59,113 nt of DNA from NCBI GenBank assembly GCA_003134375.1, contig PLAY01000151.1:1-59113 (forward strand), written 5' to 3'. Position numbers and translations under genes: made by a program. Every line of letters begins with the position of its first letter. Position 1 is the stretch's first letter. Source of the DNA: Limisphaerales bacterium. Lineage in GTDB: Bacteria; Verrucomicrobiota; Verrucomicrobiia; Limisphaerales; UBA11358. The notes under the pieces were generated by a model that searched no databases, was not told the origin of the DNA, and saw only the letters and a program-made list of their open reading frames with translations. Shown one piece after another: positions 1,977 to 50,301 of the stretch.

Positions 1977-2061
1977 GGTAGGTTACCCAAGTGGCCAACG
2001 GGGGCAGACTGTAAATCTGCTGGCTATGCCTTCGATGGTTCGAATCCATCACCTACCACCA
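1977..2061 (+). tRNA. tRNA-Tyr (GTA)
   Basis: Cloverleaf GGTAGGT...ACCTACC-ACCA, anticodon loop CTGTAAA, GTTCGAATC T-loop, long variable arm, encoded CCA. Confidence 0.98.
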
Positions 2062-2062
2062 C
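2004..2062 (+). repeat. attL core of element 1 (inside tRNA-Tyr)
   Basis: Identical to 14510-14568. Confidence 0.95.
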
Positions 2063-2486
2063 TCTTTCTTTACGAATGGAAAGTGGATTTTAGACAAATA
2101 AATCAATTGTTTTAAGGGCATTGCTGTTTTCAACCTTTGCGTTTTGGTGCTTTTGCCGTCTCTTGCGTTCCCGTCCTGTTCGATGCGGATAAAGCAATCA
2201 TAAAGCAATCAATGTCCTAAAGCCGAAAACCGCCCCCGTTTCACCAAGCACACGCAAAACGCGCGTCCAGCGGAATCCAGCGCACGGCAAACGGCATCGT
2301 GGTGAATGTTCGGGTGAAGTTTCGGAATTTAAGGAATCCATTTTTTCGCGGGGGCGACCCGTCCCCGCCGAGTGCCGGGGGGAGGGGGATTTTGCAACCG
2401 TCATTCGTTTAGGAGTCCCGCGCTTTGAGCGAAGCCTGTTTTGAGGCAGGGCTGCTTGCTGCACGGTTTGACATCCGCCCGCGTCA

Positions 2487-2804
2487 TCAGCTTTTACTTT
2501 GGGCGATTAGTGACAGCACATCACTTTCGAGAAAACCACATGACCTTGTTCTCCCTGGCAGCTTTAACTTTTTCAGAATCCCGGACGCGGCAAGCTTATC
2601 CACCGTTCGGAGCGATACTGCCAAAAGACCGGCGACCTCGTCACGACGAATACAACGCTGGCGAACTACCGGCACGGCGTCTGGTTTTAGGGACTCGTCA
2701 TCGCCATTGCGGAGCATCGCCACGAGTCGGGCGCGCTTGGCAGGCGTGATTGTCGGATCGGCCTTCAATCCAGCTTTGAGCAGTTCAATTGTCGTGACAA
2801 GCAT
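2487..2804 (-). CDS. AlpA/excisionase-like HTH protein (paralogue of 11524-11844)
   Basis: IRRDEVAGLLAVSLRTVDKL HTH; aligns end to end with the 11524-11844 product. Confidence 0.8.
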   Translation of the reverse strand: MLVTTIELLKAGLKADPTITPAKRARLVAMLRNGDDESLKPDAVPVVRQRCIRRDEVAGLLAVSLRTVDKLAASGILKKLKLPGRTRSCGFLESDVLSLIAQSKS

Positions 2805-3965
2805 GGTTCAGTTTTAGAATGACTTTATGCAAACCAGCGACCGGGCAGGCGTTCCAGACACACGGGATTTCAAGCGCGGGTGACAGCATTGCCGAAAAGG
2901 AAAGTGTCCTGTCGAGGTGTCCGACTACATCCTGAATGTGATCCAATTGGCTCCGGTTGAACTCGCGGCACGCTGGCATTCGCATGGCATGAACCTACCG
3001 GTTTTGGATGAGGCACGCCCTACCCCTCGTCAAAACGAGGATTCTGCGTCCGCGCTATGGACGCGGTGAAGCTGCGATCTAACCGGCAAATGGCCGCGCC
3101 GATGTCCGTAGCCACGGGCAGTCCGTGCCCAGTCCGTGACCACAGCCGCGTCCGCAGTTTTTCCGTGGGCGCGCACACTCCATGACCCGGCACAATCCGT
3201 GTCCTTGAATAATCCGAAACCATGACCGCTGCCGCAGTCATGGATTGTCCGTGTTCAGTCCGCGTCCGCGTTCTCGCCGTGAACCAACCGTGTCCCGATT
3301 CTTGGACTGGCCGGAAAATGTCCGCGATACGGTGGAATTATTTCCTGTGTGATTTCCAGCCAACGGCTGCGACACTTCCCGCGTGAATCCTTAATCGCCC
3401 TCTGACTCCCGGCGAAGCGAGCATCGTCAAGGTGGAAGTCGCCGGGCATTACGGCGAAACTACCTTGACGACGCGCAGCGAGCCACACAATCGAAGGGCG
3501 ATTCACGCGGAGCCGGAGGTGAACCCGGCGCGGATGCGGACTGGACACGGATAGTTCGAGGTCACGGGCTGGATGCGGACATTCGCGGCCTGGCCACGGT
3601 CACGGACTGGACAAGACCACGGCCATCATGCCGGGCTATGGCGCGGATATTCCGCGTCCAAACCGCGACCGCTTCGCGGACGCTGAATCCTCGTTTTGAC
3701 GAGGAGTAAGGCTTGTCTGCGTAAAAAGCCTTCAAGTGAAGGCGGCAAATGGTGGCAAATGTGCGGTGGCAAAAGGCGACAAATTGCAACAAATTCGTTG
3801 TCGCCTTTTGCCGCAATTTGACACTGGTGCGGATGCGGCTCGATTCATTGGCCGAATGGTTAAGGGGATGGTGTCTTCCAAAAATTGCCCGCAGATAAGG
3901 GCAAGATAAACACGAGATATTCGCCTGAATGGGATGTTGGCGGATGCTCCGCTACTGTCACCGGG

Positions 3966-4150
3966 GCCGTGCGCGTGAATCAGAGGCGTGATGGTGCGTC
4001 GCCGGTCGTCGCGTCAATCTATTGCTCGCCTCATCCGGCTGTGCTCCAGATTGCACCCGCCGCCCGGCTCCGGGGTTTTTGCCTCTATGATTCTGCGCCC
4101 GGAGAATTGCTTTGCGAAGATGATGGCAAATTTACGGACGCGGCTTACGA
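3966..4150. repeat. Structured non-coding repeat, copy A
   Basis: Near-identical reverse-complement copy at 47434-47572; partial copies at 41920-42017 and 43605-43667. Confidence 0.9.
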
Positions 4151-4159
4151 ATAGGCACA

Positions 4160-4861
4160 TCATTTGTTTTCATCGTCTTTGCGGATAACCATAATTTTAT
4201 TCTGCGCAATCGCGTCCTCAAAAACCGCAGGATTCTCGGCGAGCGATTGTGTCGCATACTCCTTCTCTGCATTGTCCGCTATCATAAAAAACATCAAACC
4301 CCATAATGCTGACAAGGCAAAAAAGGTGTAATAGCTGTGAATCCCGAAACGAAACCAAGATACTATCAGACCGATGAGAAGGAAGGCTCCAATGGAGGGC
4401 TGCTTTTTCTGATTGTAGATGAGGCGAGCACCGATGCGCGTTGCAATGGCGGACACAACAATCCCACTCAGTAGCCACCAATCGTGCTCGTGCCACGCCC
4501 ACAAAGGAATAGCAAAAGCCGGGGCAACCATGTAAAGCAGAACCAAAATGCTAAAAATAGTCCGCCGCGCCCCTCTGATAAATTGGTATGGCTCACCGGA
4601 GATGCACTTAAATCCCATCGTTCCGCTCTGCACGCCGACAACAAAGTCGGCATGAGTGATGCCCTGATTGGCTTTTGCAACGTCGGCTTCCAACGCAGCC
4701 TGAAACTCCGGTGTCTTCGTCCTTTCCCATGCTGCCTTGGTCAATTCCTGCATTGGGTTGAAGCTCGCAGTGCAGTTCGGACACGAAACAACGGTATTGA
4801 AGACCTCACCTGCTACCTCGAAGGTTGTCCTGCAACGTGGACAAGTGGCTTTTTGGTTCAT
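4160..4861 (-). CDS. Zn-ribbon plus multi-pass membrane hypothetical protein
   Basis: CPRC...CPNC followed by about four hydrophobic segments; start placed at MNQKATC to avoid overlap with the upstream gene. Confidence 0.75.
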   Translation of the reverse strand: MNQKATCPRCRTTFEVAGEVFNTVVSCPNCTASFNPMQELTKAAWERTKTPEFQAALEADVAKANQGITHADFVVGVQSGTMGFKCISGEPYQFIRGARRTIFSILVLLYMVAPAFAIPLWAWHEHDWWLLSGIVVSAIATRIGARLIYNQKKQPSIGAFLLIGLIVSWFRFGIHSYYTFFALSALWGLMFFMIADNAEKEYATQSLAENPAVFEDAIAQNKIMVIRKDDENK

Positions 4862-4874
4862 AGCTTTTATACCA

Positions 4875-5231
4875 TCAGTTCTCCGGGTTGCCGGGTGGTG
4901 GGACAAATTTTTGCGGACGATTGGTTTTGCCATCGCGTGACCACGCGGGTTTAACGACAATCACCCAAACCATGCCGGTTACGGCGGCAAGTGCCAACCA
5001 TTCGACCAAAAGTGTTTTCAAATCAATTTCAATGCTCCACGCGCCGCCTTTGGTATCCGGTGGAGAAAGAATAAATTCGTGACCTGCTGGCGTTCTCTGG
5101 TGAGCATGATACGGAACGTCCAAGACATTCAGCCACGGCGGAAAAAGGCAGGTCAAGATGAACATGGCAAGTGCCGTTAAGCAAAGGATGCGCGCCCGAT
5201 TTGGCCGTTGGTTTGATTCCGTGGAGATCAT
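4875..5231 (-). CDS. Small membrane hypothetical protein
   Basis: Two hydrophobic segments; same strand and spacing as neighbouring cargo genes. Confidence 0.65.
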   Translation of the reverse strand: MISTESNQRPNRARILCLTALAMFILTCLFPPWLNVLDVPYHAHQRTPAGHEFILSPPDTKGGAWSIEIDLKTLLVEWLALAAVTGMVWVIVVKPAWSRDGKTNRPQKFVPPPGNPEN

Positions 5232-5240
5232 GTCACCGTT

Positions 5241-5477
5241 TTAATGTGATTGAACTGGAACGCAACTGTTCAGATAAACACAAAGCAGGATCATCGCTGC
5301 CAATCCAATGCAAAGATATTTGTAAATGTCCCGCGCTTGTTCCGCCTTATCGCGCTCTTTGACCAACTTGGAAATTTCGCGTTGATGAAATTCGTATGCC
5401 TCCTCCGCCACCCAGACTCCGCCAATCATAGCGCGCCGGTTTGTTGGCTCGTCGGCATGATTTGGTGGCGTGTTCAT
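5241..5477 (-). CDS. Small hypothetical protein with C-terminal TM helix
   Basis: ATG overlaps the stop of 5474-6019 (ATGA); coiled segment then hydrophobic helix. Confidence 0.55.
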   Translation of the reverse strand: MNTPPNHADEPTNRRAMIGGVWVAEEAYEFHQREISKLVKERDKAEQARDIYKYLCIGLAAMILLCVYLNSCVPVQSH

Positions 5478-6019
5478 TCCGGTTGGGACGGTTGATGTTG
5501 GGTTTCGTCCTCCGTCGGTAAAAGCAAGTCGGGTTGAATTTCCCTGATCCATTGCTTGAAGTCATCCCGATAATACTCTGGATGTCGCCGAATTTCTTGG
5601 ACGTTATTTGGATTCAAAATTATCCGCACCCACGATTTCTCCAGCTCGTTTTTCTCTTTCTCCAGCTTGTTTTGTTCTTTGGCATAAGCAGCAACCAAGA
5701 ACCAAAAAAACACTCCAAACAGAATCAGGAAAAAACCACTACCGGAGTCGCGCAAGACCTCGATGCAAAACCCTTGATGTCTTATGGTTTCAGCAAGATG
5801 GATCGCTGAAAGGCCGATGAACAAACCGAGTCCAGCACCCGCAAACATCAAATTGATGATTAGAAGATTGTCGCTATTACCGGCTAGGAAAAACAGAAGC
5901 ACGGCGACTGCTGCAAGAATGATGAAGTCGTTGCCTGTGCTACAGGCTGCGAGCATGAGTGCGGCCAGCCCAACAAACTTAATAAACTTAACTGCGAGGG
6001 CGGAATTTTTAGTTTTCAT
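5474..6019 (-). CDS. Membrane hypothetical protein
   Basis: Three to four hydrophobic segments and a charged coiled-coil tail. Confidence 0.7.
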   Translation of the reverse strand: MKTKNSALAVKFIKFVGLAALMLAACSTGNDFIILAAVAVLLFFLAGNSDNLLIINLMFAGAGLGLFIGLSAIHLAETIRHQGFCIEVLRDSGSGFFLILFGVFFWFLVAAYAKEQNKLEKEKNELEKSWVRIILNPNNVQEIRRHPEYYRDDFKQWIREIQPDLLLPTEDETQHQPSQPE

Positions 6020-6084
6020 GGACTTGTCTTCCCTTGTGAGAATTGGCCGCGCAGAAAAATAGGCGTAGTTTCAAATGCTGCCTG

Positions 6085-7029
6085 TCACCACACAAAGCCG
6101 GTTTGTGTGCGGGGTTTATTTTGAAAATGAGAAAGAAAGAAACAGCGGCGGACAAGGAGTGCGGGAATACCAACGGCCAGCAACCCAAAAACCGATGGTT
6201 CAGGAATCTCGATGGCCAGTCCAACCGGGTTATCCAACCCAGAGGCGTAGGTGCTTTGTGCTCCGCCCGGCGTCAATTCGATGATGTTATTGGCACCCCC
6301 ATTCGCCACAAACAGGTTGCCCGCGCCGTTAAAGACCAGCCCATTAGGAGCGGACAACCCGGAGGCGAAGGTGCTTTCCACTCCGCCCGGCGTGATTTCA
6401 GTAACGCCACCGCCACCGGGCACTCCGTTGTCTTCATCCGCTACAAACAGATTGCCTGCGCTGTCAAAGGCTAGTCCCCAAGGAACCGCCAACCCGGAGG
6501 CAAATGTGCTTTGAACTCCGCTTGGTGTGAATTCATAGATATTGCCACTGTGCATATCTGCCTCATACAAGTCACCCGCGCTGTTAAAAGCCAATCCAGC
6601 AGGATCAACCAACCCGGAGGCAAAGGTTGCCCGCACTCCGCCCGGTGTGATTACAATGATGTTATTGGCACCCCCATTCGCCACAAACAGGTTGCCCGCG
6701 CTGTCAAAGGCCAGCCCATAAGGAACATTAAACCCGGAGGCAAAGGTGCTTTTGACTCCCCCCGACGTGATTTCATAGATGTTGCCACTCTGGGAATCCG
6801 CCACAAACAAATCACCCATACTGTTAAAGGCCAGCCCTTCAGGACCACCCAAACCGGAGGCAAAAATGCTTTGCACGCCGCCCGGCGTCAATTCGATGAT
6901 GTTGTTGGCGCTACCGTTATTCGCCACAAACAGATTTTGAGCCTGTGCGCTGGAGGCAATCAGCAGGACTGCTCCCGCACAAACCGCTCCGGTGAATGAA
7001 TGACACACTATTCGATTGTTTATTTTCAT
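6085..7029 (-). CDS. Secreted NHL-repeat beta-propeller protein with PEP-CTERM sorting signal
   Basis: Signal peptide, about six FASGL..P.GLAF(N/D)..G.LFVA repeats, C-terminal IPEPSVFGLLAVGIPALLVRR. Confidence 0.9.
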   Translation of the reverse strand: MKINNRIVCHSFTGAVCAGAVLLIASSAQAQNLFVANNGSANNIIELTPGGVQSIFASGLGGPEGLAFNSMGDLFVADSQSGNIYEITSGGVKSTFASGFNVPYGLAFDSAGNLFVANGGANNIIVITPGGVRATFASGLVDPAGLAFNSAGDLYEADMHSGNIYEFTPSGVQSTFASGLAVPWGLAFDSAGNLFVADEDNGVPGGGGVTEITPGGVESTFASGLSAPNGLVFNGAGNLFVANGGANNIIELTPGGAQSTYASGLDNPVGLAIEIPEPSVFGLLAVGIPALLVRRCFFLSHFQNKPRTQTGFVW

Positions 7030-7470: not shown

Positions 7471-7479
7471 AGGTGTATC

Positions 7480-8115
7480 TTAATTTGCAAGTTTGGCGAC
7501 GTTTGGGTGCGGCCAAAGTTCTGATTTTCTGATGCGGGTCTGCATTGCTTGCCGTGAAACGCCAAAATGACCATGCAGCGCCCGGCAGCAGAAATCTAAA
7601 ACTTCTTCTTTCCCCTGATTGAAAAAACCTTCCCGTTCCGCATCGGCAACGGCTTCGGCCAATGCGGTCGAAAGTTCTTTTGTGGGCATCAAAAACCGTC
7701 CGGCAAATTCGTCCGCCTGCCATTCAATCCAGTTATATTCGGCCACCGGAATTGCATTGATAAACGCAATCCACTGTTTGATCGTTCCAAATTTAACTGC
7801 CCCATAAATGTCTTTATGAAGAAACAGGTGAGCCAATTCATGGGCGGCAGAAAATCGCAGCCTGGGTTGCAGGGAAGGCTCTTTGAAAACCATGCCGTCA
7901 AACCAAATGCCGGTCAAATCAGGGCGAAGGAAAGCATCCTGTTTAAGTTGATGGATGGGAGCAAAATCAAATTCCAACCCCAAATCAAATTCCGCAAATC
8001 CCAAAACATCTATGGGAATTTTTTGTGCAGATTTATATTGCCCACGAATTTGAGCCGCACTGACCTCGATTTCCTCTTTTGAGAGATAGGGCGCTTTGAA
8101 TTTGGCCGGATTCAC
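7480..8115 (-). CDS. ImmA/IrrE-family metallopeptidase
   Basis: RLRFSAAHELAH (HExxH) and EWQADEFAGRFLMP motifs. Confidence 0.9.
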   Translation of the reverse strand: MNPAKFKAPYLSKEEIEVSAAQIRGQYKSAQKIPIDVLGFAEFDLGLEFDFAPIHQLKQDAFLRPDLTGIWFDGMVFKEPSLQPRLRFSAAHELAHLFLHKDIYGAVKFGTIKQWIAFINAIPVAEYNWIEWQADEFAGRFLMPTKELSTALAEAVADAEREGFFNQGKEEVLDFCCRALHGHFGVSRQAMQTRIRKSELWPHPNVAKLAN

Positions 8116-8122
8116 GTCGCCC

Positions 8123-8482
8123 TTATGAGTTTTTCAGGATTTCTGCCAGTTTTTCCAAATCTTTAGTGGTGGGTTTTTTGCCGGTTGCCGTTCGGAAAAA
8201 GACCGGCAGGCGTTTTACCAATTCGGCATCATTCATCACATATTGAGGAATTTTCCCCGCGTCAATCGCCGCATAGTCGAAAATCAATTCGCGTTCTTTG
8301 GAGTCTTCAGACAGGCCGAGGATGACGGCAATCCGGTTGAGAAGCCTCTGATCTTGAGGGGGTGGCAGGACGCCGCGCTCGATTTTGCTCCAATTGCTGG
8401 GGTCGCAATCAGTAGCGATGCAAAATTCGCGCAATCCCAAACGCCGTTCCGCCCGCAGTTTTTTTAGAAATTTGCCGAACAT
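8123..8482 (-). CDS. XRE-family HTH transcriptional regulator
   Basis: MFGKFLKKLRAERRLGLREFC...PSNWSKIERG; directly upstream of the peptidase gene. Confidence 0.9.
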   Translation of the reverse strand: MFGKFLKKLRAERRLGLREFCIATDCDPSNWSKIERGVLPPPQDQRLLNRIAVILGLSEDSKERELIFDYAAIDAGKIPQYVMNDAELVKRLPVFFRTATGKKPTTKDLEKLAEILKNS

Positions 8483-8492
8483 AATCTTGCCT

Positions 8493-8530
8493 GTGTGGTA
8501 GAAAAATACCACACGGCCAAGTGATGTCAA
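8493..8530 (-). promoter_or_regulatory. Promoter with overlapping palindromic operator for the xre-immA operon
   Basis: Minus-strand TTGACA (8525-8530), 16 bp, TG-n-TATTTT (8503-8508); perfect inverted repeat GTGTGGTA-N6-TACCACAC at 8493-8514. Confidence 0.75.
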
Positions 8531-9062: not shown

Positions 9063-9154
9063 GCGTCACCTTACACGCCCTGATATAGGGGCGTGACGGT
9101 GTGACGGTAACGCCGTCGTGACGGTGATTTGACGCTGGTTTGACGGTTGACGGT
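9063..9154. repeat. Iteron-like TGACGGT repeats with palindrome (candidate origin)
   Basis: TGACGGT at 9094, 9102, 9119, 9141 and 9148, a variant at 9130, an inverted CGTCACC near 9064, and hairpin CACGCCC-N8-GGGCGTG. Confidence 0.6.
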
Positions 9155-9163: not shown

Positions 9164-11143
9164 TTAAGCGGTTAAAACGTATAATCCGGCAAGGTCTTTT
9201 TTTACAATTCCAAGCGCAAGCATTGTGGTCACTCTGCGCTCGGCTGTTTTACCTTTTACGGCCAATTTGGTTTTGACGGCAGTTTCCAATTCAAACCGCC
9301 GCATTGCTGGCCTGTCCGAAAAAATGGCGCGGGCAAGCTCTGTCAGTTCTTCCCGCTCTTTATCCACCTTTGCGCCGTTGATGTTTTGCACGCTGACGTG
9401 CATCTGATGTTGCTCGCTCCATGCGAATCTGGGCGCGGTATTTTTCGGAATAGGGGCGTCCCGGTTTTTTTCTGCCCACATGACGCTGACTCCGTTGGTG
9501 TCCTTTTCCAGCTTTAGGTTGGTCTCTGACTTGCGCTCTAAATACGAACCAAGATGCCCGCGAGTTTTGTCAGGACTGCCGGGGTTTAGATGGATGATGT
9601 TTAAGATCGGACAATCAAACTCCATCGTTATGCTTTCGAGTTCGGAAATGATGCCGTTGCACTCTGGAATATCATTTACGTTATGCACTGTGTCGCCTGT
9701 GCCGTCTATGATGATGGAGTGAACACCGCCGAATTGATTTGCGGCTTGTTCTGTCAGCAACCGGATTGATTTGCGGATTTCGTCAACAGAGAATCCCTTT
9801 AGGTAATACGAGCGCAACCATTCCGGCGCGGCGGCAACCTGGGCGCGGCGTATCAATCGCTGTATTCCATTCCAATGGCGAAACTGGCATTGCTCGGTGT
9901 CAAGATGGACAACCGCGAAGCCGTTTGGATTTTGAGAGGTGAAGCCAAAGCAATCGGCGTCAGGCGTGGCAAACGTGCTGGCGATGACGGCGTTTAGTGC
10001 GGCTGTTTTCCCGCCTTTGGCCTGCGCGGAAAAGGTAGTCAGGTTTTGGGAATAGCAAATCGGCGTGCCGTTTAGGAAAAATCGCGGCGGCTGTTCAATC
10101 GGTGTGACTGTTGGCGAATAAATCCGCGTTGTGAGCCGTTCAATCAAACTTGGTTGCGCGGCCTCGGTTGCGCCCGGCGCGTCATCATTGCCCGGCAATG
10201 GGTCTTGCGCGGCCTGCGGTTGGACCAGTTTCGCGGCGGCAATCGCGGCCTCAAAATCTGCCTTCGTTGCACCGGCTCGCGAGAAGTCGTTTGCGTCCTT
10301 GTGTGGAAATGGCGTCGCTACGTTATAGACCTTGCAACCGGCGCTGCTGGCGATCTCGGCAAGCCAAGTATCACCAGCCGGAATTTTCTGGCCGGGTTTC
10401 AATGCGTCATTTTGCTTGAAGGCGTAGCAAACAGCGTCCGGCTCAATCTGTCCGCAAATCAATTCGCCATTGCCCGCGCCGCGTGTGATGAAAACGGCGG
10501 TGTCTGGCAAACCGCTGGCCGTGTGCCAGCCGAGTTTGTCCATGACCGCAAAGGCGTCATATTGCGATTCAAAAGTCAGAACGTAACCAGCGGCTTTTGT
10601 GTCGCCAAAAACCAGCGGCGCGGTGCTGTGTCCCGTCGGCTTAAAAATCCATTTGCCATTCGCCAGCCGGACGTGAGCGGAAACAACCTTGCCGTCGTCA
10701 CCATGATTTGCGAACGCGGTCAGGCCGTCGCAAATTCCAACGATGCCTTGTGCGTAAAGCCAGCGGACAAATTCAATGGACAAGCCACGCCCTGCCACCA
10801 GCTTTTGCGCGTCTGTTTCCGTGAACGCGGCAACGCATTTTTGCCAGTCGAAGTTTTCGCCGGTCGCTTCAATTCGCGGCTTCGCTGGTTTCGTGGCGAT
10901 GGCCGGGCGCGATGGCATAGGTGAAAGCCGACTGCCCGCCAGTTTGAAAATCTCCTGGCGGTGTTCGCTGTCGCCGGGATTCGTCGCGCAACCGAATTTT
11001 CCGCCAGGTTGAATCAATAGATGATCGCCGGACTTGTCAGAGCCAACCGCACGGCAGGCAGGACAAGCTGCACGGACGCCACCGCCATCGAGGTGTTTAA
11101 CATTTTCCAGCCTTGCCGTATCAAGTGAGATTTCACCGGCCAT
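9164..11143 (-). CDS. Primase-helicase (Zn-binding N-terminus, Toprim-like centre, AAA/RepA-type helicase)
   Basis: CPAC...HL...GC N-terminus; FESQYDA and KDAND Toprim-like motifs; Walker A AQAKGGKT; Walker B SIIIDG; RGHLGS motif. Confidence 0.85.
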   Translation of the reverse strand: MAGEISLDTARLENVKHLDGGGVRAACPACRAVGSDKSGDHLLIQPGGKFGCATNPGDSEHRQEIFKLAGSRLSPMPSRPAIATKPAKPRIEATGENFDWQKCVAAFTETDAQKLVAGRGLSIEFVRWLYAQGIVGICDGLTAFANHGDDGKVVSAHVRLANGKWIFKPTGHSTAPLVFGDTKAAGYVLTFESQYDAFAVMDKLGWHTASGLPDTAVFITRGAGNGELICGQIEPDAVCYAFKQNDALKPGQKIPAGDTWLAEIASSAGCKVYNVATPFPHKDANDFSRAGATKADFEAAIAAAKLVQPQAAQDPLPGNDDAPGATEAAQPSLIERLTTRIYSPTVTPIEQPPRFFLNGTPICYSQNLTTFSAQAKGGKTAALNAVIASTFATPDADCFGFTSQNPNGFAVVHLDTEQCQFRHWNGIQRLIRRAQVAAAPEWLRSYYLKGFSVDEIRKSIRLLTEQAANQFGGVHSIIIDGTGDTVHNVNDIPECNGIISELESITMEFDCPILNIIHLNPGSPDKTRGHLGSYLERKSETNLKLEKDTNGVSVMWAEKNRDAPIPKNTAPRFAWSEQHQMHVSVQNINGAKVDKEREELTELARAIFSDRPAMRRFELETAVKTKLAVKGKTAERRVTTMLALGIVKKDLAGLYVLTA

Positions 11144-11281
11144 AATCCAACCTTTCTGCCAGCGTGCGCCGCAAGCGTGCCGACAATGCGCGTTTGGATT
11201 GATGAAGTCCGCCACGCACAATTCGTTCAATTTCGCGGACGGTGGACAGGGAAACGCCCTTGGGTTTGCGGGGGCGGTTTT

Positions 11282-14509: not shown

Positions 14510-14568
14510 GCAGACTGTAAATCTGCTGGCTATGCCTTCGATGGTTCGAATCCATCACCTACCACCAC
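14510..14568 (+). repeat. attR core of element 1
   Basis: 59-bp exact duplicate of 2004-2062. Confidence 0.95.
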
Positions 14569-40735: not shown

Positions 40736-40756
40736 CACGAAGGAGAAACAATTTTA

Positions 40757-41710: not shown

Positions 41711-42121
41711 AACCGACCACTCAGAGTCCGGAGACTGGCCGGAATATACCCACCTCGCAGATCAACATCGCCCGTGAAGGTGGCAAGCAAGTCAACATTC
41801 AAGGCGATACACCTTGCCAGCGGTGAACATCCGGCGGCGGTTCCTGACACGGCGGAGGCCATGTAGCACTTGCCAGCCGCTAATCCTTGCCTATGCAGTT
41901 AAACACCATCAAACACGCCCAGCCGGTTGAGGCGAGCAAGACATTGACGCGACAACCGGCGACACATAATCGGCCTCTGATTCGCGCGCACGGCTTCAAC
42001 GCGGATGTGTCACGATTTTTTCCGGGCATTTGACTGGACACTGCCCGGAACCTTCCCGGCAGTTGCCCGGATGCTGCCCGGACATTTCAGCGGATAAACC
42101 GCCGGATAGACGCCGATAATA

Positions 42122-43447: not shown

Positions 43448-43645
43448 ATGAAAACCAACTACCTCAAAACTGGCGCGCGCCGCCGCCGCAAAACTTTTGC
43501 TGACGGTAGCCATGTGATCGTGAGTAGCAGCGGCTACGAAATCTTTGAGGGCATCCCAAAATTCAAAAAGGCCAAGCTGAAACCGCGCGCCAAGCGCAAG
43601 TCACCGTCATCTTCGCAAAGCAATTCTCCGGGCGCAGAATCATAG
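43448..43645 (+). CDS. Small basic hypothetical protein
   Basis: 65 aa, Lys/Arg-rich; the 3' end runs into repeat copy C. Confidence 0.35.
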   Translation: MKTNYLKTGARRRRKTFADGSHVIVSSSGYEIFEGIPKFKKAKLKPRAKRKSPSSSQSNSPGAES

Positions 43646-43732
43646 AGGCAAAATCCCGGAAGCCGGGGATAGTTGGGCGAGCGAGGGGTGCCAGCCCTCT
43701 GGCGTGAACGAATGAAGCCCATCTCCGACGCT

Positions 43733-44362
43733 TTAGCCAAGAGCCAAACGCCGGAGTTGCTCGTAAGCTTTGCTGGTTACGGCGGGTGGATTCAGAGTTC
43801 CAGGGATGTGCCCGAAAATGTCCCGCATCATCGCTTCGGTAATGGCCGGCGGGTGATGCAATTCACAAAACAGCGGCTCGCAAGCGTGGAAAATGCTCCA
43901 GGTCTTTGCCCGCAGTCGGTAAATGGCGTCCCAGTGGCGAAGATCATTGTGATAGCGGTCGGTCTTTTCCAGTGCAAGCGGCGGATTGCCCGGCACCATG
44001 CAGTTGCTCGGCAAGGGCTGTCCTTGGATGCGATACCAGTCGGCGGCGGCGGCATGGGATTCAAATGACGCCCGAATTTTCAGAATTGCGACCAGTCGCC
44101 AGTGACCTTCGGCAGCATTGAAATAACGCGCCTTGCGGGTGATGTTAACAACCGTGTCGCCGACCCGCAGACGCGGGGCGAAATGCCCACATCGGCAAAG
44201 GGCAGAGATTGATGGAAATTTCGACTCGAAATCAGGCTCACGTCGGCACGATGCGTCCACAAATGGCGACAACTTAAAATCCGCAATAGCCGCTCTGCCA
44301 TTCGGTGACTCAATCAGGGGCCGAAATGAGCAGAGGTATTTCACCTTTGACGGGTTCCTCAA
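43733..44362 (-). CDS. Hypothetical protein, possibly Nmad2/ASCH-PUA-like
   Basis: PFVDASCRREPDF...ISALCR...RLRVGDTVV pattern; ATGA-coupled to the PIN-like gene. Confidence 0.75.
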   Translation of the reverse strand: MRNPSKVKYLCSFRPLIESPNGRAAIADFKLSPFVDASCRREPDFESKFPSISALCRCGHFAPRLRVGDTVVNITRKARYFNAAEGHWRLVAILKIRASFESHAAAADWYRIQGQPLPSNCMVPGNPPLALEKTDRYHNDLRHWDAIYRLRAKTWSIFHACEPLFCELHHPPAITEAMMRDIFGHIPGTLNPPAVTSKAYEQLRRLALG

Positions 44363-45200
44363 TGAGATGATAATTCTATTGTAATGGGATTCCCATTGTT
44401 CACGGTCACATCGGCAACTTTAAAAAAGTCTGGTAGTTCTTCGTTGAAGCGGAGTGTAAAAGTTGATTCCAGATTTAGAGTTTCGTTGAATCCTTCAAAC
44501 TGATCCCCGACACCATATTCGTCCCCCAGAAACAAAGCATCGCCCTCGAACTGGACGACTAACTCTAATCGAACCGTTGCTTGGCGTGGCTGCAAATTAA
44601 AAACCAATGTGTTAGTAACTTCAAAAATGTCGGAAGAAAGGCCGCCAACATCGAACATGCGGCCATGATAAGAAACAAAATCTAATTTATCTATGGCCTT
44701 TCCAATTATTTTGCAAATGGAAACCATATTCTTATCCACTAACCGGCGAACAAAATTTGAAACTTTGGTGTGCGAGTTATACTGGCTTAATAGTTCCTCA
44801 ACACCTTGGATTATATGAAATCGCTCGTCTGCACCGACAAAATCGGGGTCACAGGACACAATGTAAATTCCATTCGATGCATCGGGCAACCTTTTCAATG
44901 CCTCAATCACAAATGCGTCACGAAATTCATCTTTCTTTTCTACGGAAAACGGTTTTTCTCGTTTGAAGTATTTGTCAATTACGATTGGTGTAGCATCATT
45001 AGGTATCGGCAGGACAGTCACCTTTGCGGATTCAAAGAATTTTGAGACTTTGGATTGCAATGCTCCCTCTACAGATTCAGGAGTCACTTTATTCAACGCA
45101 TCTAGGTCATATTTAATTCCCATCAAATCCAAGGCAATTGGTTTGCTCCTTAATCTTTCTAAAGCCTTGTAATAACCATCTGCGTGCTCACTAATCCGCG
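44359..45200 (-). pseudogene. PIN-like (DUF4935-type) protein lacking its N-terminus
   Basis: KYF...KPF...KKDEFRDAFVIEAL and IVSCDPDF motifs; the frame is open to about 45200, where it meets the end of the MTase gene with no native start. Confidence 0.7.
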
Positions 45201-47335
45201 TTCATCTGTGCCTTGATCGTCGTCACGCCCGGCCAGTTCAATTCGTCAATGTCCTTCGCGGCTTCGGGATCAAATTGAAACGCGGCGAAAACGATCAACT
45301 GCGGCCGCGGCACGAGTTTACGCGCTTCTTCCAAAGCCATTTCCACCTGCTTTTGTTCCAGCGGCGCGTGTTCCGGGCCGAAGGAAATGACGGCGCGTTG
45401 CCGGTCTTTTGCCGCGCCCTCTCGCAACTTGGCGACGCCTTCGTCATTCGGCCTGGTCTCGGCGTCGGCGTGCAACCAGCGCGTGCCGGAGAATGGTTCG
45501 ACGCGGGAAAAATGAATCATCTGCCCGCCCTTGCCACGGATGCCGGCGCGCAACAATTCGCTGCGCCACTCGTCTTGGCGGATGGTTGCGCCGGAGCGGG
45601 CGACCGATTCATCGGCGGGCATGGGCGCGGCGGTTTCTTCACCGGACAACTCGCCAGGCGATTTCACCATCGGTGCGGGGACTGCTTCGACGGTGAACGG
45701 GCCGGTCACGCGCGTTTTGCCGGTGTCCACGAGCGGCTGGTCGTAAAGCGTTTCCGGTTCGGGCGGTTCGTTGTTGGCAATGCTTTTGAGCGTGACGTGC
45801 GGCACGGTTTTGTAACGCAGGCCGCTGTCCACGCCTTCGTCGGGATGCGCCAGTTGAAAATACTCAAACACCGCCGTCATCAATCGCTGTTTGGCGAGCG
45901 TGAGCGCGACGCGGGAAGTGTCGCAAGTCATCCAACGGCGTCCCCATTGTTCCGCCACAACTGCCGTCGTGCCACTGCCGCAAGTGATGTCCAAAACCAA
46001 ATCGCCGGGGTCGGTTGTCATCAGAAGGCACCGTTCGACAACCTTTGTGTTTGTCTCAACGACATATTGCTTCTTTCGCGCAAAACCGCTGGTCGCAGTG
46101 TCGTCCCAGACCGTGTTAATTGGTGACACTGGAAAGTCATCTAGGTATCGCTTGTAGCGCAGCGTGTCCCCGACGGCCATCAAACGATTTCGTTCCGCCA
46201 ATTTTTGCATTCCAGCAGGAGTTGTTTTCCAATGCGAGTTTGCCGGTAACTTAAACTCTTTACCTTTCCATTTGAAAGGCACGGATGAGTCACCGCTGAT
46301 TCCTTGCGATGTGATATTGTCGTGAACGAGCAGCCGCCAGCCGTCTGGAATCAAGCGTGGATTCGCAATTTCCTCCTCGGTTAGTTCGCGCAGCGTTTTC
46401 CCGTCCGGCGACTCTATCAGTTGGTAGCGTCCTATCCCATCGGGGCCAACCCTATCTTGGAAAAGCTTTCTGTTCTTTACTCGCGGAATGTCTTTGCAAT
46501 ACCAAACCAGATAGTCGCAGACAGTGCTGAGAAGTTTTGCCGCCTGTCCGCCGGTTGTCTTGAATGCGATTAAGCCGCAGAAATTCTTCACGCCGAATAC
46601 TTCGTCGCAAATTTCCCGGACGTGATGCACGTTTTCATCGGAGATTTGCACGAACACCGAGCCAGATTCGTGCAGAAGTTCGCGGGCGAGCAGCAGGCGG
46701 TCGCGTAGATAGCTCAAGTAGGAGTGCAGGCCAAGTTCCCAGGTATCGCGGAAGGCTTTCACCATTTCCGGTTCGGCGGTCAGGTCTTCATCCTTGCCGT
46801 CCTTCACTTCACGCTTGTTGACGAAGGGCTGGAAGTTCGAACCATATTTGATGCCGTAAGGCGGGTCGAAATAAAGCATCTGCACCTGGCCGGCCATGTC
46901 CTCCTTTTCCAGCAGCGAGTTCATCACCAGCAAACTGTCGCCCGCGATGAAGCGGTTGCTCCAGTTGTGCGCGTGCTTGTAAAACTCAATCGCCTCGCGC
47001 AACGGCGGGTTTTCCGTCTTGGAACCGAACAGGGAAAGTTGCGCGTAGTCGCTGCCGTTTTTCTTCCGCACGGCCTCGATTATGGCGCGCGGGTCAATAC
47101 GCTCGTGAACGTGCAGCGAGACGGTGGGAATCTCAAAGCTGGTGCGCTCGGCTTTACCCGCCCAAACCAGCGTCGGGTCCAGGTGCGGATCGTAAGCATA
47201 GGTCTTCTTCCCCTCGACCGCATCGCTCTTGGCGTCCACGAGGCCGACGGGCGGGTTATTGATGCGCTTCTTGCCCTTGTGATCGTATTGCTCGATGGGC
47301 TTTTTCTTTGTCGTCGTGTCGGTTCGTTTCGCCAT
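45191..47335 (-). CDS. Site-specific DNA methyltransferase (N6-adenine, Type III Mod-like), C-terminally truncated
   Basis: YFDPPY motif IV and DITCGSGTT motif I; ends abruptly at IKAQMNAD; no restriction subunit follows. Confidence 0.9.
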   Translation of the reverse strand: MAKRTDTTTKKKPIEQYDHKGKKRINNPPVGLVDAKSDAVEGKKTYAYDPHLDPTLVWAGKAERTSFEIPTVSLHVHERIDPRAIIEAVRKKNGSDYAQLSLFGSKTENPPLREAIEFYKHAHNWSNRFIAGDSLLVMNSLLEKEDMAGQVQMLYFDPPYGIKYGSNFQPFVNKREVKDGKDEDLTAEPEMVKAFRDTWELGLHSYLSYLRDRLLLARELLHESGSVFVQISDENVHHVREICDEVFGVKNFCGLIAFKTTGGQAAKLLSTVCDYLVWYCKDIPRVKNRKLFQDRVGPDGIGRYQLIESPDGKTLRELTEEEIANPRLIPDGWRLLVHDNITSQGISGDSSVPFKWKGKEFKLPANSHWKTTPAGMQKLAERNRLMAVGDTLRYKRYLDDFPVSPINTVWDDTATSGFARKKQYVVETNTKVVERCLLMTTDPGDLVLDITCGSGTTAVVAEQWGRRWMTCDTSRVALTLAKQRLMTAVFEYFQLAHPDEGVDSGLRYKTVPHVTLKSIANNEPPEPETLYDQPLVDTGKTRVTGPFTVEAVPAPMVKSPGELSGEETAAPMPADESVARSGATIRQDEWRSELLRAGIRGKGGQMIHFSRVEPFSGTRWLHADAETRPNDEGVAKLREGAAKDRQRAVISFGPEHAPLEQKQVEMALEEARKLVPRPQLIVFAAFQFDPEAAKDIDELNWPGVTTIKAQMNAD

Positions 47336-48492: not shown

Positions 48493-48539
48493 GGAACGCT
48501 TGCAAATTCATGCGTTCTCACGTTTGATGAGTTAAAGCC

Positions 48540-49511
48540 TTGCGAACATGGCACAATCCACAGGAGAATTTGCCCGTGAAAATCCTAATGCCAGCACAGA
48601 TCAACGCCGACGGCTTGCTGCCGTTTCTGGCAATACTGGGCAGACCGCTGGCAGCAGGTGATGAAGTAGTGCTGGATTTTTCCGAACTGCGCCGCGTGAC
48701 GCCTGCCGGGTTGGTCGCGCTGGTGGCCACTGTCGTCCGCTGGCGGCGCGAGCATCATCCAATGACATTTGCAGGATTAAAGACCTGTTCAATCCTCGGT
48801 TATTTGCAACGGATGGATGTATTCAAAACTTGCGGGGTTGAACTTCAGGAAACATTTCAACGGCATGAAGCAAAAGGGCGTTTCGTGCCGGTGCGTTTCA
48901 TTGACCACCAGATAAGTGCGATGGGAACCGATTTGGCGGGTTGCCTGGCTCCCGGTGGTGAGGAGTATGGCCACCCCATGTGCGACCTCTATGATCTGTC
49001 GTGGTATGTCTTGACGGAAATAGCAAACAATGTTCGCCAGCACAGTCACGGGCTTGGCTATGTGTCGGCGCAGGTCAACCGCACGGAAGGTTTTGTGCGG
49101 TTGGCACTGGCAGATAATGGCTGCGGCATTCTTAAAAGTTTTCAGGATGCTGGATTCAAGTGGAGCGAGGGAATGACCGATGCAGAGGCAATTTGCAAGG
49201 CGTTGGAACCGACGGTTTCATCCAAAGGCAGCCCTACGAATGAAGGTGTCGGGCTGACGCTCGTTGCCGGATTGGTGCGACAGACGAAAAGCTGGCTGAT
49301 GATCGTCAGCGGTTGCGGCGTATTGCAAATTGGTAATGATTTGAAGCCCAAAGCAGTGAATTTGCCGGATGGCGCACGCTATCAAGGCACATTGGTAGTT
49401 ATGACATTTCGCCAGCAAAATGTGCGTGATTATGCCTCGCTGTTGCACGCGGCAAAAACCAACGTTGGACTCTTGCAAAGGTCAGGCAAAGCGATTAGAT
49501 TCTTGCCGTGA
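48540..49511 (+). CDS. STAS-like plus HATPase (histidine-kinase-like ATPase) protein
   Basis: VVLDFSELRRVTPAGL STAS pattern; EIANNVRQH, LADNGCGI and GVGL ATPase boxes. Confidence 0.85.
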   Translation: MRTWHNPQENLPVKILMPAQINADGLLPFLAILGRPLAAGDEVVLDFSELRRVTPAGLVALVATVVRWRREHHPMTFAGLKTCSILGYLQRMDVFKTCGVELQETFQRHEAKGRFVPVRFIDHQISAMGTDLAGCLAPGGEEYGHPMCDLYDLSWYVLTEIANNVRQHSHGLGYVSAQVNRTEGFVRLALADNGCGILKSFQDAGFKWSEGMTDAEAICKALEPTVSSKGSPTNEGVGLTLVAGLVRQTKSWLMIVSGCGVLQIGNDLKPKAVNLPDGARYQGTLVVMTFRQQNVRDYASLLHAAKTNVGLLQRSGKAIRFLP

Positions 49512-49819
49512 ACTTGGAACTTTCCATCCGCGAGCATTTCGGCAGTCATTTGGCCGACGGTGCCAAAGCAGCCGAGTTTCGCCTGGGGCGCATTGATCCT
49601 TATGTGGAGATTTGTCCTCAAATCATTTTGGACTTCACGGGCGTTCGCAACGCCAACAGTTCCTTCATAAATGCGTTGGTTGCTGGCTTAATTGAGCAAC
49701 ACAACGTGAGTGTTTTGAAGAAAGTTGTTTTCAAAGGGTGCAATCCCTCGATTCAGGTTTTGATTCAAGCCGCCGTGGAATTGGGCGTTCAGAAAATCGC
49801 CGGTCGGGTCAATGCTTGA
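49508..49819 (+). CDS. STAS-like (DUF4325-type) protein
   Basis: IILDFTGVRNANSSFINALV pattern; GTGA-coupled to the ATPase gene. Confidence 0.85.
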   Translation: MNLELSIREHFGSHLADGAKAAEFRLGRIDPYVEICPQIILDFTGVRNANSSFINALVAGLIEQHNVSVLKKVVFKGCNPSIQVLIQAAVELGVQKIAGRVNA

Positions 49820-50064
49820 TTACTGCGCCTCAACCGTCTTGGGTTCAATTGGGTAAATCCCAACAATAAGTTTCGCAGAATATTGCCCTTTGTCTGAAAA
49901 CCTCCCTTGCGCTGGCGACGGCGTTTGCGCATTGCCCCCCCCAGCCCGACACCCCGCCCAGACGGTCGGCCAAAAAAGAAATCTTTGTTGCCGGACACCC
50001 GCCATGACGCCCCGTGTGATTCGCTGGCTTGGGCAGGACGCGCTTTGATTGGCTGGACGGGCTG

Positions 50065-50137
50065 GACACAGCCCTGACACAGAATCAAGCCCTGACACAG
50101 CACTGACACAGGCCAAATCCCCGACACAGCCCGACAC
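50065..50137 (+). repeat. GACACAG repeat array (candidate integrase arm sites)
   Basis: Six GACAC(AG) copies near attR; the same CTGACACA motif occurs twice at 35681-35700 near attL. Confidence 0.75.
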
Positions 50138-50264
50138 GTCTTTTTCTACTGCTAGTTGCTCACAGATGCCAGAAAATGCTTGCAATCAAACGGCAATGCC
50201 GTAGTATCACTAGCAGGCCAGTATGAAGAAAGGCAATTATGAGCAATGACGAAAACACCCTGTT

Positions 50265-50301
50265 TGCAGGTTCAAGTCCTGCTATGCGCACCAATTTTCC
50301 T
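50265..50301 (+). repeat. attR core of element 2
   Basis: 37-bp exact duplicate of 35619-35655. Confidence 0.95.

What the first reader, a model, noticed from the sequence alone, without database searches (positions are those of the whole stretch)
2004..50301. Two satellite-like elements with one architecture: a possible undescribed family
Seen, reading along each integrase strand: int, a 320-340 aa unknown ORF, AlpA/excisionase HTH, replication protein with iterons, small candidate packaging protein, cargo, the shared hairpin repeat with a TCCG-rich tract, a second AlpA/xis paralogue, and a C-run/GACGG(G)TCG/A6 motif near the distal att. Sizes are 12.5 and 14.7 kb. No capsid, tail, relaxase or T4SS gene was recognised. 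Known: PICIs and P4-like satellites have int-alpA-primase/rep modules, are 10-15 kb and carry defence cargo. Inference: a Verrucomicrobial satellite lineage with interchangeable integrase and replicon modules but shared cis signals.
Basis: partly seen in the sequence, partly recalled or inferred. Interest (0 to 1): 0.8.

Follow-up and report, generated by a model that had tools for sequence, protein, structure and literature searches.

The report
Two modular tRNA-integrated replicating islands
The window holds two real, self-replicating genomic islands inserted in tRNA genes; nothing ties them to phages, and the hairpin they share is a widespread structured element, also found on conjugative elements, that looks like a promoter working on single-stranded DNA.

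Summary
Both elements are real. E1 (2004-14568) lies at tRNA-Tyr and E2 (35616-50309) at tRNA-Leu(GAG), each bounded by a repeat of the tRNA 3' end. Both read integrase, a 320-340 aa unknown protein, an HTH_17 (AlpA/Xis-like) protein, a replication module, cargo, a second HTH_17 paralogue, a distal motif, then att. The likeness is positional. The two unknown proteins are unrelated (hhalign probability 0.2%), the integrases barely align, and the replication proteins differ. Metagenomic relatives keep "integrase + unknown + small HTH + primase/helicase" with swapped modules, so a modular lineage exists. No capsid, terminase, hijack, relaxase or T4SS gene was found. No relative occurs in 2.9 million viral contigs. 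DNA depth inside the islands equals that of the flanks. The shared 140-nt hairpin is not private to them. This genome has at least 11 strong copies, and 29 of 151 genomes of the order carry it. Divergent copies sit beside the VirB4-like ATPase of MOBF ICEs. Its helices covary (27 of 34 pairs) around an invariant TTGAC and a TAyAAT in an internal loop, which fits an Frpo-like single-strand promoter. The best reading is tycheposon- or IME-like islands that may hitch-hike on conjugation. Phage satellite status is unsupported but not excluded.

The parts
1977..2061 (+). tRNA-Tyr(GTA), integration target of E1
   Evidence: ARAGORN; Rfam
2004..2062 (.). E1 attL core (intact tRNA 3' end)
   Evidence: direct repeat D3
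14510..14568 (.). E1 attR core (partial tRNA-Tyr copy)
   Evidence: direct repeat D3
13061..14392 (-). E1 tyrosine integrase, 443 aa
   Evidence: PF00589 63.7 bits
12017..13045 (-). E1 342-aa integrase-linked protein, all-helical, unknown fold
   Evidence: 82 homologues, next to an integrase in the three contexts read; AF2 pLDDT 78.5; no PDB or BFVD match
11524..11955 (-). E1 HTH (AlpA/Xis-like) paralogue 1
   Evidence: phrog_66 excisionase/regulator; 53% identical to 2487-2804
11282..11659 (-). E1 second small HTH ORF (125 aa as listed; its start probably lies further in)
   Evidence: phrog_57/phrog_66 HTH-only matches
9164..11230 (-). E1 primase/helicase, 688 aa
   Evidence: phrog_239 E 3.7e-9; 28-30% identical to 'bifunctional DNA primase/helicase' of Bacteroidota; 48.5% identical (204 aa) to a C62 paralogue
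9094..9154 (.). E1 iteron-like cluster, TGACGGT x5, just after the primase/helicase stop codon
   Evidence: genome density 0.22 per kb
7480..8530 (-). E1 XRE HTH (8123-8530) + ImmA/IrrE M78 peptidase (7480-8115) switch pair
   Evidence: PF13560, PF06114; capP/RmrA-like
4160..7029 (-). E1 cargo: NHL-repeat PEP-CTERM protein (6085-7029) and four small membrane/zinc-ribbon ORFs
3965..4105 (-). R1 hairpin element, strong copy in E1
   Evidence: CM R1 152.9 bits
3374..3514 (+). second, divergent, inverted R1-like copy (ICE type), 570 nt upstream of alpA2
   Evidence: CM 20.5 bits, E 0.008; 80% identical to the ICE copy C158:24672-24755
2487..2804 (-). E1 HTH_17 paralogue 2
   Evidence: PF12728 E 0.0011
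2341..2388 (-). distal motif C-run..GACGGGTCG..A6
   Evidence: one of 3 genome-wide hits
35563..35647 (+). tRNA-Leu(GAG), integration target of E2
35616..35663 (.). E2 attL
   Evidence: direct repeat D9
50262..50309 (.). E2 attR
   Evidence: direct repeat D9
35638..37068 (+). E2 tyrosine integrase, 476 aa
   Evidence: PF00589/PF02899 weak; 42% identical to the C5 integrase
37072..38031 (+). E2 319-aa integrase-linked protein (family unrelated to the E1 342-aa protein)
   Evidence: 7 homologues, next to an integrase in the two contexts read; hhalign
38103..38357 (+). E2 HTH_17 paralogue 1
   Evidence: PF12728 28.3 bits
38484..39710 (+). E2 408-aa winged-helix protein, putative initiator; direct repeats 39263-39292 and 39356-39404 lie in its disordered-linker coding region
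   Evidence: 29 homologues; AF2 and Foldseek give only WH-level hits; TRF
39714..41710 (+). E2 three unknown ORFs (210, 130, 317 aa)
   Evidence: no family hits
41917..42040 (+). R1 3' half-copy
43604..43667 (+). R1 5' half-copy
43733..47335 (-). E2 cargo operon: type III-like N6/N4 MTase (45191-47335), PIN_12 protein (44359-45132), 209-aa ORF; the start codon is 99 nt from the 5' edge of R1, on the opposite strand
   Evidence: PF01555, PF16289; PDLC03632
47434..47573 (+). R1 hairpin element, strong copy in E2
   Evidence: CM 162.2 bits
48187..48492 (+). E2 HTH_17 paralogue 2
   Evidence: PF12728; 55% identical to 38103-38357
48540..49819 (+). STAS/HATPase-like 323-aa protein + DUF4325 103-aa protein
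49935..49977 (+). distal motif C-run..GACGGTCG..A6
50065..50137 (+). GACACAG x5 direct repeats beside attR (candidate arm-type sites)

Best explanation
E1 and E2 are two independent, intact-looking, tRNA-integrating genomic islands. They are built from swappable modules of the int / integrase-linked unknown / Xis-like HTH / own replicon / cargo type. That makes them tycheposon-like or IME-like elements, not demonstrable phage satellites. Shown: att repeats, integrases, HTH_17 pairs, a primase/helicase with adjacent iteron-like repeats in E1, and recurrence of the layout in other Verrucomicrobiota with different replication proteins. Inferred life cycle: Int plus an HTH_17 protein excise a circle. 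The circle replicates from its own origin (E1: TGACGGT iterons bound by the primase/helicase; E2: repeats inside the gene of a winged-helix initiator). Cargo is defence- or conflict-type. The shared 140-nt hairpin (R1) is an independent structured cis module of Verrucomicrobial mobile DNA. A covarying closing stem and inner stem embed an invariant -35 TTGAC in duplex. They also hold a -10 TAyAAT in a permanently open internal loop, 15 nt downstream. This is the architecture of Frpo/ssi single-strand DNA promoters. On single-stranded DNA, RNA polymerase would start in the closing stem and read out through the 5' flank. In E2 that flank is the MTase-PIN operon. Divergent R1 copies also lie in MOBF (TrwC) / T4SS ICEs of the same genome. 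The most likely intercellular route is therefore transfer as single-stranded DNA, mobilised in trans by those ICEs, rather than packaging by a helper phage. This last step is inference.
For: att sites, tRNAs and integrases. Module identities. Layout in relatives with swapped replicons. A remnant at the same tRNA-Tyr/ffh site in another MAG. Iterons. Third element with the same distal motif. R1 distribution: 19 CM hits in this genome and 29 of 151 genomes of the order; 28 true copies among named genomes, nearly all Verrucomicrobiota. R1 structure: 27 of 34 pairs covary, 87.6% of cells paired vs 30-36% in slid controls. TTGAC is 98-100% conserved with non-covarying partners, the A, A, A and T of the -10 are 92-96% conserved, and G.U outnumbers A.C 78 to 43 on this strand. 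DNA fold -34 kcal/mol, z -3.2. ICE link: the VirB4/TraG-like 904-aa gene lies 2-4 kb from divergent R1 copies on the opposite strand in C48, C158, C70, G055, G034 and G137, and the C158 ICE carries a TrwC relaxase. In 14 of 20 distinct contexts the gene at the R1 5' edge is on the opposite strand; these genes include an MTase, a HepT toxin, a YhcG nuclease and a PLD/SNF2 operon. This resembles leading-region repertoires (PMC11541004).
Against: No relaxase was found, and no oriT-like similarity to the ICE relaxase region was seen in E1 or E2. The closest relatives of both core families lack R1, so R1 is not essential to the element type. E1's strong R1 copy faces the wrong way for the model, because a co-directional 266-aa gene lies at its 5' side. 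The orientation tally is only 14 of 20 (p about 0.06). The 88-92% identical ICEs count as one lineage, and in the two deeply diverged ICEs R1 lies 9-16 kb from the ATPase. The 15-nt spacer is short for a sigma-70 promoter. No excision junctions or copy-number excess were seen. RNA contigs cover both sides of R1 but carry no strand information.
Confidence: 0.5

Rival explanations
1. E1 and E2 are genuine phage satellites of an unknown Verrucomicrobial helper phage. The lineage-specific unknown proteins (342/319 aa, 82 aa, 210/130/317 aa) would be novel derepression, hijack or packaging functions. The distal motif would be a pac/cos-type signal.
For: Size of 12.5-14.7 kb, int-alpA-primase/rep order and defence-type cargo. 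The XRE/ImmA pair could sense a phage or SOS signal. Many ORFs have no known fold. The distal motif is exclusive to three such elements. Minimal satellites without capsid-remodelling genes exist (PICMI, PMC10803314, listed).
Against: No terS, capsid, Sid/Psu/Delta, Ppi or Cpm homologue was found. No relative of either core family occurs in IMG/VR. None of the viral pattern hits is a true R1. E2's 408-aa protein has no phage-database match. Depth equals that of the flanks. int+AlpA+primase alone is non-diagnostic (PMC10085698). The shared hairpin links to ICEs, not phages.
Confidence: 0.15
2. E1 and E2 are ordinary cargo islands, like cargo-carrying tycheposons, that spread by vesicles, transformation or not at all. 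R1 would then have nothing to do with transfer. It could be a selfish palindromic (MITE/Correia-like) repeat carrying an outward promoter. It could instead be a structured RNA, such as a 5' leader or a 6S-like mimic of an open promoter that binds RNA polymerase, which accumulates in mobile DNA.
For: This genome has 11 strong R1 copies while others have 1-4. R1 also lies next to ordinary genes such as a ClC channel and an ABC transporter. Half-copies sit at cargo junctions. The genome is rich in other selfish repeats according to earlier notes. R1-containing RNA contigs exist in metatranscriptomes. The closing stem could be a terminal inverted repeat. The closing stem, central bubble and inner stem resemble the 6S layout.
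Against: Copies within the genome are 72-93% identical with different flanks, which is not a recent burst. Compensatory changes run through the whole inner stem, not only the ends. The two best-conserved blocks are exactly a -35 and a -10 in the right order, which neither a repeat nor a leader needs. No Rfam family, 6S included, matches. An RNA started from that promoter would not contain the covarying helices.
Confidence: 0.3

Closest known systems
Tycheposons (Prochlorococcus; bioRxiv 10.1101/2020.12.28.424599)
   Same: They integrate at tRNA 3' ends and leave partial tRNA copies. They carry a tyrosine recombinase, an excisionase and a primase/helicase replication module, with swappable modules and niche or defence cargo. 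Tandem and degenerate remnants lie next to the tRNA; here these are 14569-14760 and the integrase stub at 50377-50548.
   Different: A different phylum, and no homology of the hallmark genes was tested. Here an extra conserved ~330-aa protein follows the integrase, the HTH_17 proteins come as pairs, and there is a distal motif. No vesicle or virion data exist for these elements.
PICI / P4-like phage satellites (SatelliteFinder definitions, PMC10085698)
   Same: 10-15 kb, int - AlpA-type regulator - primase/replicase order, iterons beside the rep gene, and defence cargo.
   Different: Every hijack or packaging core gene is missing (Psu, Delta, Sid, epsilon; terS, Ppi, Cpm; capsid genes). There is no helper, no virome signal, and the replication proteins are unrelated between E1 and E2.
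Integrative mobilizable elements that use an ICE's machinery in trans
   Same: Small integrase-bearing islands without a T4SS that co-reside with ICEs (TrwC relaxase, VirB4-like ATPase) and share a structured cis element with them.
   Different: No relaxase and no recognisable oriT. The shared element is only about 60% similar to the ICE copies and looks like a promoter, not a nic site. The islands also carry their own theta-type replicons.
Frpo/ssi single-strand DNA promoters of conjugative plasmid leading regions (PMC11541004; Masai & Arai 1997 as cited there)
   Same: This comparison concerns R1. Both are hairpins that rebuild a -35/-10 promoter on one DNA strand. MTase, toxin-antitoxin and defence-type genes are oriented to be read from that strand. 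Both occur on conjugative elements.
   Different: No sequence similarity. The phylum is Verrucomicrobiota. R1 is shorter (140 nt), has a 15-nt spacer and holds the -10 in a conserved open loop. It is defined here by covariation and is untested biochemically. It also occurs on relaxase-less islands and beside ordinary genes.

Membership tests
P4-like satellite | integrase + AlpA-type regulator + alpha primase/helicase | tested here: inconclusive
   E1 has all three in a loose sense (PF00589, phrog_66, phrog_239). E2 has int and HTH_17 but no primase/helicase.
P4-like satellite | Psu-Delta-Sid capsid hijack operon and epsilon/Ash | tested here: not met
   No Pfam, PHROG or NCBIfam hit in any ORF of E1 or E2.
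PICI / cfPICI | packaging or interference genes (terS, Ppi, Cpm) or capsid-forming genes | tested here: not met
   The only hit is an HTH-only match of a 125-aa ORF to phrog_57, and it equally matches the excisionase phrog_66. No capsid or terminase families were found.
Any phage satellite | induction by and packaging into particles of a helper phage | not testable with these tools
   Indirect evidence only. There are no relatives in IMG/VR, depth equals that of the flanks, and no circle joints appear in Logan contigs of four metagenomes.
Site-specific integrative element (genomic island) | integrase plus flanking att repeats at a tRNA 3' end | tested here: met
   A related remnant occupies the same tRNA-Tyr/ffh site in another MAG.
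Integrative mobilizable element (IME) | own relaxase and/or an oriT recognised by a co-resident conjugative element | tested here: inconclusive
   No relaxase family hit, and the AF2 models of the 342- and 408-aa proteins are not HUH folds. No blastn similarity to the ICE relaxase region. An oriT cannot be recognised from sequence alone.
ICE | T4SS genes within the element | tested here: not met
   None in E1 or E2. The VirB4-like gene and TrwC lie on other contigs.
Frpo/ssi single-strand promoter (for R1) | hairpin on one strand that presents -35 and -10 elements to RNA polymerase | tested here: met
   Covarying stems; TTGAC in the stem and TAyAAT in the internal loop are near-invariant in 49 copies.
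Frpo/ssi single-strand promoter (for R1) | lies on the transferred strand of a conjugative element, with downstream genes templated by that strand | tested here: inconclusive
   R1 is present in MOBF/T4SS ICEs in a constant orientation to the ATPase, but these ICEs are one lineage. 14 of 20 distinct contexts fit. The transferred strand is unknown.
Frpo/ssi single-strand promoter (for R1) | transcription or priming from single-stranded DNA in vitro or early in recipients | not testable with these tools
   Metatranscriptome contigs have no direction.
Rfam RNA families (for R1) | match to a curated covariance model | tested here: not met
   Only tRNAs matched at the gathering threshold. The best hit at E<=10 is a chance snoRNA match.

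The most novel reading that the evidence does not exclude
Verrucomicrobiota carry their own family of single-strand DNA promoters (R1), the first defined by covariation and the first outside the classical plasmid hosts. E1 and E2 would then represent a class of relaxase-less, self-replicating integrative elements. Such elements would enter new cells as single-stranded DNA by riding MOBF ICEs. R1 would fire protective genes, such as the orphan MTase-PIN operon, before the second strand is made.
Probability: 0.3. Interest if true: 0.75.

Novelty: new variant of a known kind. Interest (0 to 1): 0.5.

Why it matters
Mobile elements of Verrucomicrobiota from peat and permafrost are almost undescribed. 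This work defines a recurring island type and two new integrase-linked protein families (82 and 7 members) with no known fold. It also defines a distal cis motif exclusive to such islands. The most useful product is a 140-nt structured DNA element with strong covariation and an embedded promoter. It links small islands to conjugative elements. If it is a single-strand promoter, early post-transfer gene expression, so far studied in enterobacterial plasmids, becomes testable in a distant phylum. It would also show how relaxase-less islands could exploit ICEs. The result warns as well against calling int-alpA-primase islands 'satellites' on layout alone.

Tried and rejected
(1) Homology between the two ~330-aa proteins was rejected (BLASTP E 1.5; hhalign probability 0.2%).
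(2) A relaxase among the unknown ORFs: no hit in Pfam, PHROGs or NCBIfam. Profile searches of the PDB were empty. The AF2 models gave no HUH-like match.
(3) A viral link was sought with single-protein and profile scans of IMG/VR, the phage database, a BFVD fold search and an R1 core pattern in IMG/VR. The pattern gave 7 chance hits, none a true R1.
(4) R1 as a known RNA: no Rfam hit.
(5) R1 as a family-specific signal was rejected. It is absent from L038-L042 and present in ICEs and unrelated contexts.
(6) Association of R1 with integrases in other genomes: none of the R1 contigs of nine genomes carries PF00589, so the association seen in this genome does not generalise.
(7) Excision evidence: Logan contigs break at the repeats, and no empty-site or circle joint was seen.
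(8) The direction of R1 transcription could not be read from metatranscriptome contigs.
(9) The distal motif as an intrinsic terminator was rejected by eye. The hairpin is followed by an A-run on its strand and preceded by a T-run on the other strand.
(10) The 18-base R1 core pattern in genome contigs mostly hit high-GC genomes by chance and needed filtering with the CM.

Full report
**Observation**

The window carries three tRNA genes. The 3' end of tRNA-Tyr (core 2004-2062) is repeated at 14510-14568. The 3' end of tRNA-Leu(GAG) (35616-35663) is repeated at 50262-50309. This delimits E1 (12.5 kb) and E2 (14.7 kb). Each has a tyrosine recombinase at one end (PF00589).

Reading from the integrase, E1 has:
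- a 342-aa unknown protein;
- an HTH protein (phrog_66 excisionase/regulator) and a second small HTH ORF;
- a 688-aa primase/helicase (phrog_239), whose helicase half is 28-30% identical to Bacteroidota 'bifunctional DNA primase/helicase';
- five TGACGGT repeats within 60 bp of its stop codon;
- an 82-aa ORF;
- an XRE/ImmA(M78) pair;
- an NHL-repeat PEP-CTERM protein and small membrane ORFs;
- the hairpin repeat;
- a second HTH_17 paralogue;
- the distal motif.

E2 has:
- a 319-aa unknown protein;
- an HTH_17 protein;
- a 408-aa protein;
- three unknown ORFs;
- a minus-strand cargo block: two small ORFs, a 209-aa ORF, a PIN_12 protein and a 714-aa N6/N4 methyltransferase that matches type III Mod models;
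- the hairpin repeat;
- a second HTH_17 paralogue;
- a STAS/HATPase-like protein and a DUF4325 protein;
- the distal motif;
- five GACACAG repeats beside attR.

No ORF hits a capsid, tail, terminase, relaxase or T4SS family in Pfam, PHROGs or NCBIfam. The descriptive part of the finding is therefore largely correct.

**How alike are the two elements?**

They are alike in order, not in sequence. The 342- and 319-aa proteins are unrelated (BLASTP E 1.5; profile-profile probability 0.2%). The integrases align over 56 residues only. The HTH_17 paralogues are 53-55% identical within an element but not detectably similar between elements. At the DNA level the only similarity between E1 and E2 is the hairpin repeat. 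The 'small candidate packaging protein' has no support.

**Do relatives share the layout?**

Yes, with module swapping. The 342-aa family has 82 members. In the contexts I read:
- An 85%-identical homologue follows an integrase and precedes a small ORF and a BT4734-like_N primase-type protein, in a roughly 9-kb island.
- A 52%-identical homologue forms a two-gene remnant (integrase + 333 aa) at tRNA-Tyr next to ffh. This is the same chromosomal site as E1, in another MAG.

The 319-aa family has 7 members. Two contexts show integrase, then the homologue, then a small HTH-like ORF, then a DUF3854/DUF3631 or D5_N/DUF5906 primase-helicase. The 408-aa family has 29 members. One sits at the far end of a tRNA-Gly island with HicAB and a type ISP fragment.

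AlphaFold models built with these alignments gave the following:
- The 342-aa protein is all-helical (pLDDT 78.5) and has no match in the PDB or BFVD.
- The 408-aa protein has a folded N-terminal part ending in a winged helix, a disordered linker (263-335) whose coding DNA holds the direct repeats, and a small C-terminal helical domain. Only winged-helix-level hits appeared (ORC/Cdc6, MarR).

Neither protein is relaxase-like. A third element in this genome lies on contig C5 at tRNA-Leu(CAG). It is 8.3 kb, is flanked by a 26-bp repeat, and has an integrase 42% identical to E2's. It carries the third and only other genome-wide copy of the distal motif. Part of E1's distal arm is 75-83% identical to it.

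**The hairpin (R1) is not a family signal**

BLAST found about ten further copies in the genome. I built a covariance model from ten copies. It finds:
- 19 hits in this genome, 11 of them above 100 bits;
- copies in 29 of 151 genomes of the same order, usually 1-4 per genome and none in the two same-genus genomes;
- 28 true copies among named assemblies, almost all Verrucomicrobiota MAGs.

The closest relatives of E1 and E2 lack R1. In nine other genomes, no contig that carries R1 also carries an integrase.

In an alignment of 49 copies, 27 of 34 base pairs show compensatory changes. 87.6% of cells are paired, against 30-36% when the partners are slid. The covariation score is 0.366, against at most 0.067. 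This alignment was fitted to the model, which favours the structure.

The best-conserved letters are TTGAC (98-100%), in the 3' arm of the inner stem. Their partners never covary, although the neighbouring pairs do. Fifteen nucleotides downstream lies T/C-A-y-A-A-T, with its A, A, A and T conserved at 92-96%. It sits in the internal loop between the inner stem and the closing stem. G.U pairs outnumber A.C 78 to 43 on this strand. There is no Rfam match.

**What R1 probably is**

A sigma-70-type -35 held in duplex, a pre-opened -10, and a covarying duplex where transcription would begin make up the architecture of Frpo/ssi single-strand DNA promoters. Such promoters drive early genes from the transferred strand of conjugative plasmids (PMC11541004). 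An RNA made from this promoter in double-stranded DNA would not contain the helices that covary, so base pairing must be selected in single-stranded DNA or in an RNA made from further upstream.

On single-stranded DNA, the polymerase would read out through the 5' flank. It would express genes that lie at the R1 5' edge on the opposite strand. That arrangement holds in 14 of 20 distinct contexts:
- the E2 methyltransferase, whose start codon is 99 nt away;
- a HepT toxin and a YhcG nuclease;
- a PLD/SNF2-type operon;
- other contexts.

Six contexts do not fit, including E1's strong copy. The one-sided p-value is about 0.06, which is suggestive only. E1 also has a weak, inverted, ICE-type copy at 3374-3514, 570 nt upstream of its second HTH_17 gene.

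**Link to conjugative elements**

Divergent R1 copies (31-61 bits) lie 2-4 kb from a 904-aa VirB4/TraG-like ATPase gene, always on the opposite strand. This is seen on three contigs of this genome and in three other genomes. In two deeply diverged ICEs the distance is 9-16 kb. The ICE on contig C158 also encodes a TrwC relaxase with a helicase (PF08751, 172 bits) and an integrase. The 88-92% identical ICEs are one lineage, so they count as one observation.

**Phage satellite test**

- No hijack or packaging gene was found.
- No relative of either core family occurs in 2.9 million viral contigs, by single sequence or by profile.
- The phage database gave only generic helicase-domain hits for E1 and none for the E2 408-aa protein.
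- In four peat and permafrost metagenomes the depth inside both elements equals that of the flanks. No circle or empty-site joint is seen, though Logan contigs break at repeats and cannot show rare forms.
- SatelliteFinder's authors state that int + AlpA + primase alone is not diagnostic (PMC10085698).

Satellite status is therefore unsupported. It is not excluded, because minimal satellites exist and many ORFs here are unknown.

**Verdict**

E1 and E2 are real, probably functional, modular integrative and self-replicating islands. The closest described analogue is the cargo-carrying tycheposon. The shared hairpin is a widespread structured element of Verrucomicrobial mobile DNA. I read it, at moderate confidence, as a single-strand DNA promoter. 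That reading favours conjugative hitch-hiking over phage packaging as the transfer route.

Metatranscriptome contigs show RNA on both sides of the E2 copy (47072-47448 and 47544-48121) but carry no strand information. The RNA alternatives, a leader or a 6S-like decoy, therefore remain open.

Noticed in passing
window 14569-14760 vs 2063-2272: The chromosome flank just outside E1's attR is 86-92% identical, in three blocks, to the inside of attL (families D3, D7, D15). This looks like the stub of an earlier, related element in tandem at tRNA-Tyr.
   Followed up: partly
window 50377-50548 (-), beside tRNA-Leu(TAG) 50553-50636: A 57-codon fragment is 84% identical to the N-terminus of the E2 integrase, and is 85% identical at DNA level as an inverted repeat of 35654-35825. 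It is a remnant of an E2-like element once inserted at the neighbouring tRNA-Leu(TAG).
   Followed up: partly
genome contig C5:3221-11557: A third element of 8.3 kb lies at tRNA-Leu(CAG). Its integrase is 42% identical to E2's. It has one HTH_17 gene, a repeat-rich 834-aa protein, the distal motif at 10860 and a 26-bp att repeat. It has no R1 and no ~330-aa ORF. A second integrase lies on the other side of the tRNA.
   Followed up: partly
genome contig C48, right of the ICE R1 copy (52197-52348): A 470-aa UvrD-type helicase (Pfam) overlaps a 572-aa ATPase-like ORF. By eye this is a Gabija-like pair, sitting at the ICE cargo boundary. The 572-aa ORF was not scanned.
   Followed up: no
L013 (G143:C318) 6818-13733: A three-gene operon starts 413 nt from an R1 copy: a 446-aa unknown protein, a 704-aa PLD-like protein and a 1155-aa SNF2-type helicase (functions judged by eye). 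It looks like a defence system.
   Followed up: no
L135, L144, L099: Strong R1 copies (102-105 bits) occur on contigs of MAGs labelled Bifidobacteriaceae (128-kb contig), Omnitrophota and Acidobacteria. This is either mis-binning or transfer outside Verrucomicrobiota.
   Followed up: no
window 38210 -> 48361: In one metagenome run, a contig at about a third of the local depth joins the first HTH_17 gene to the second, skipping 10.15 kb, with 18 other letters in between. It is a related shorter element or a recombinant between the paralogues.
   Followed up: no
window 3531-3930: The non-coding stretch 3' of E1's R1 is itself conserved (71-77%) next to or near R1 copies on contigs C54, C62, C186, C10, C48 and C109. 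R1 is therefore sometimes part of a longer module of about 600 nt.
   Followed up: partly
window 7228-7470 (+): An 80-aa ORF reads, by eye, like the C-terminal tail of a large restriction-modification enzyme. It is probably a deletion scar between the ImmA gene and the NHL gene. It has no Pfam hit.
   Followed up: no
whole genome: There are 37 tyrosine-recombinase matches in a 4.16-Mb, 93%-complete MAG and four copies of the ICE ATPase gene. This is an unusually heavy load of integrative elements.
   Followed up: no
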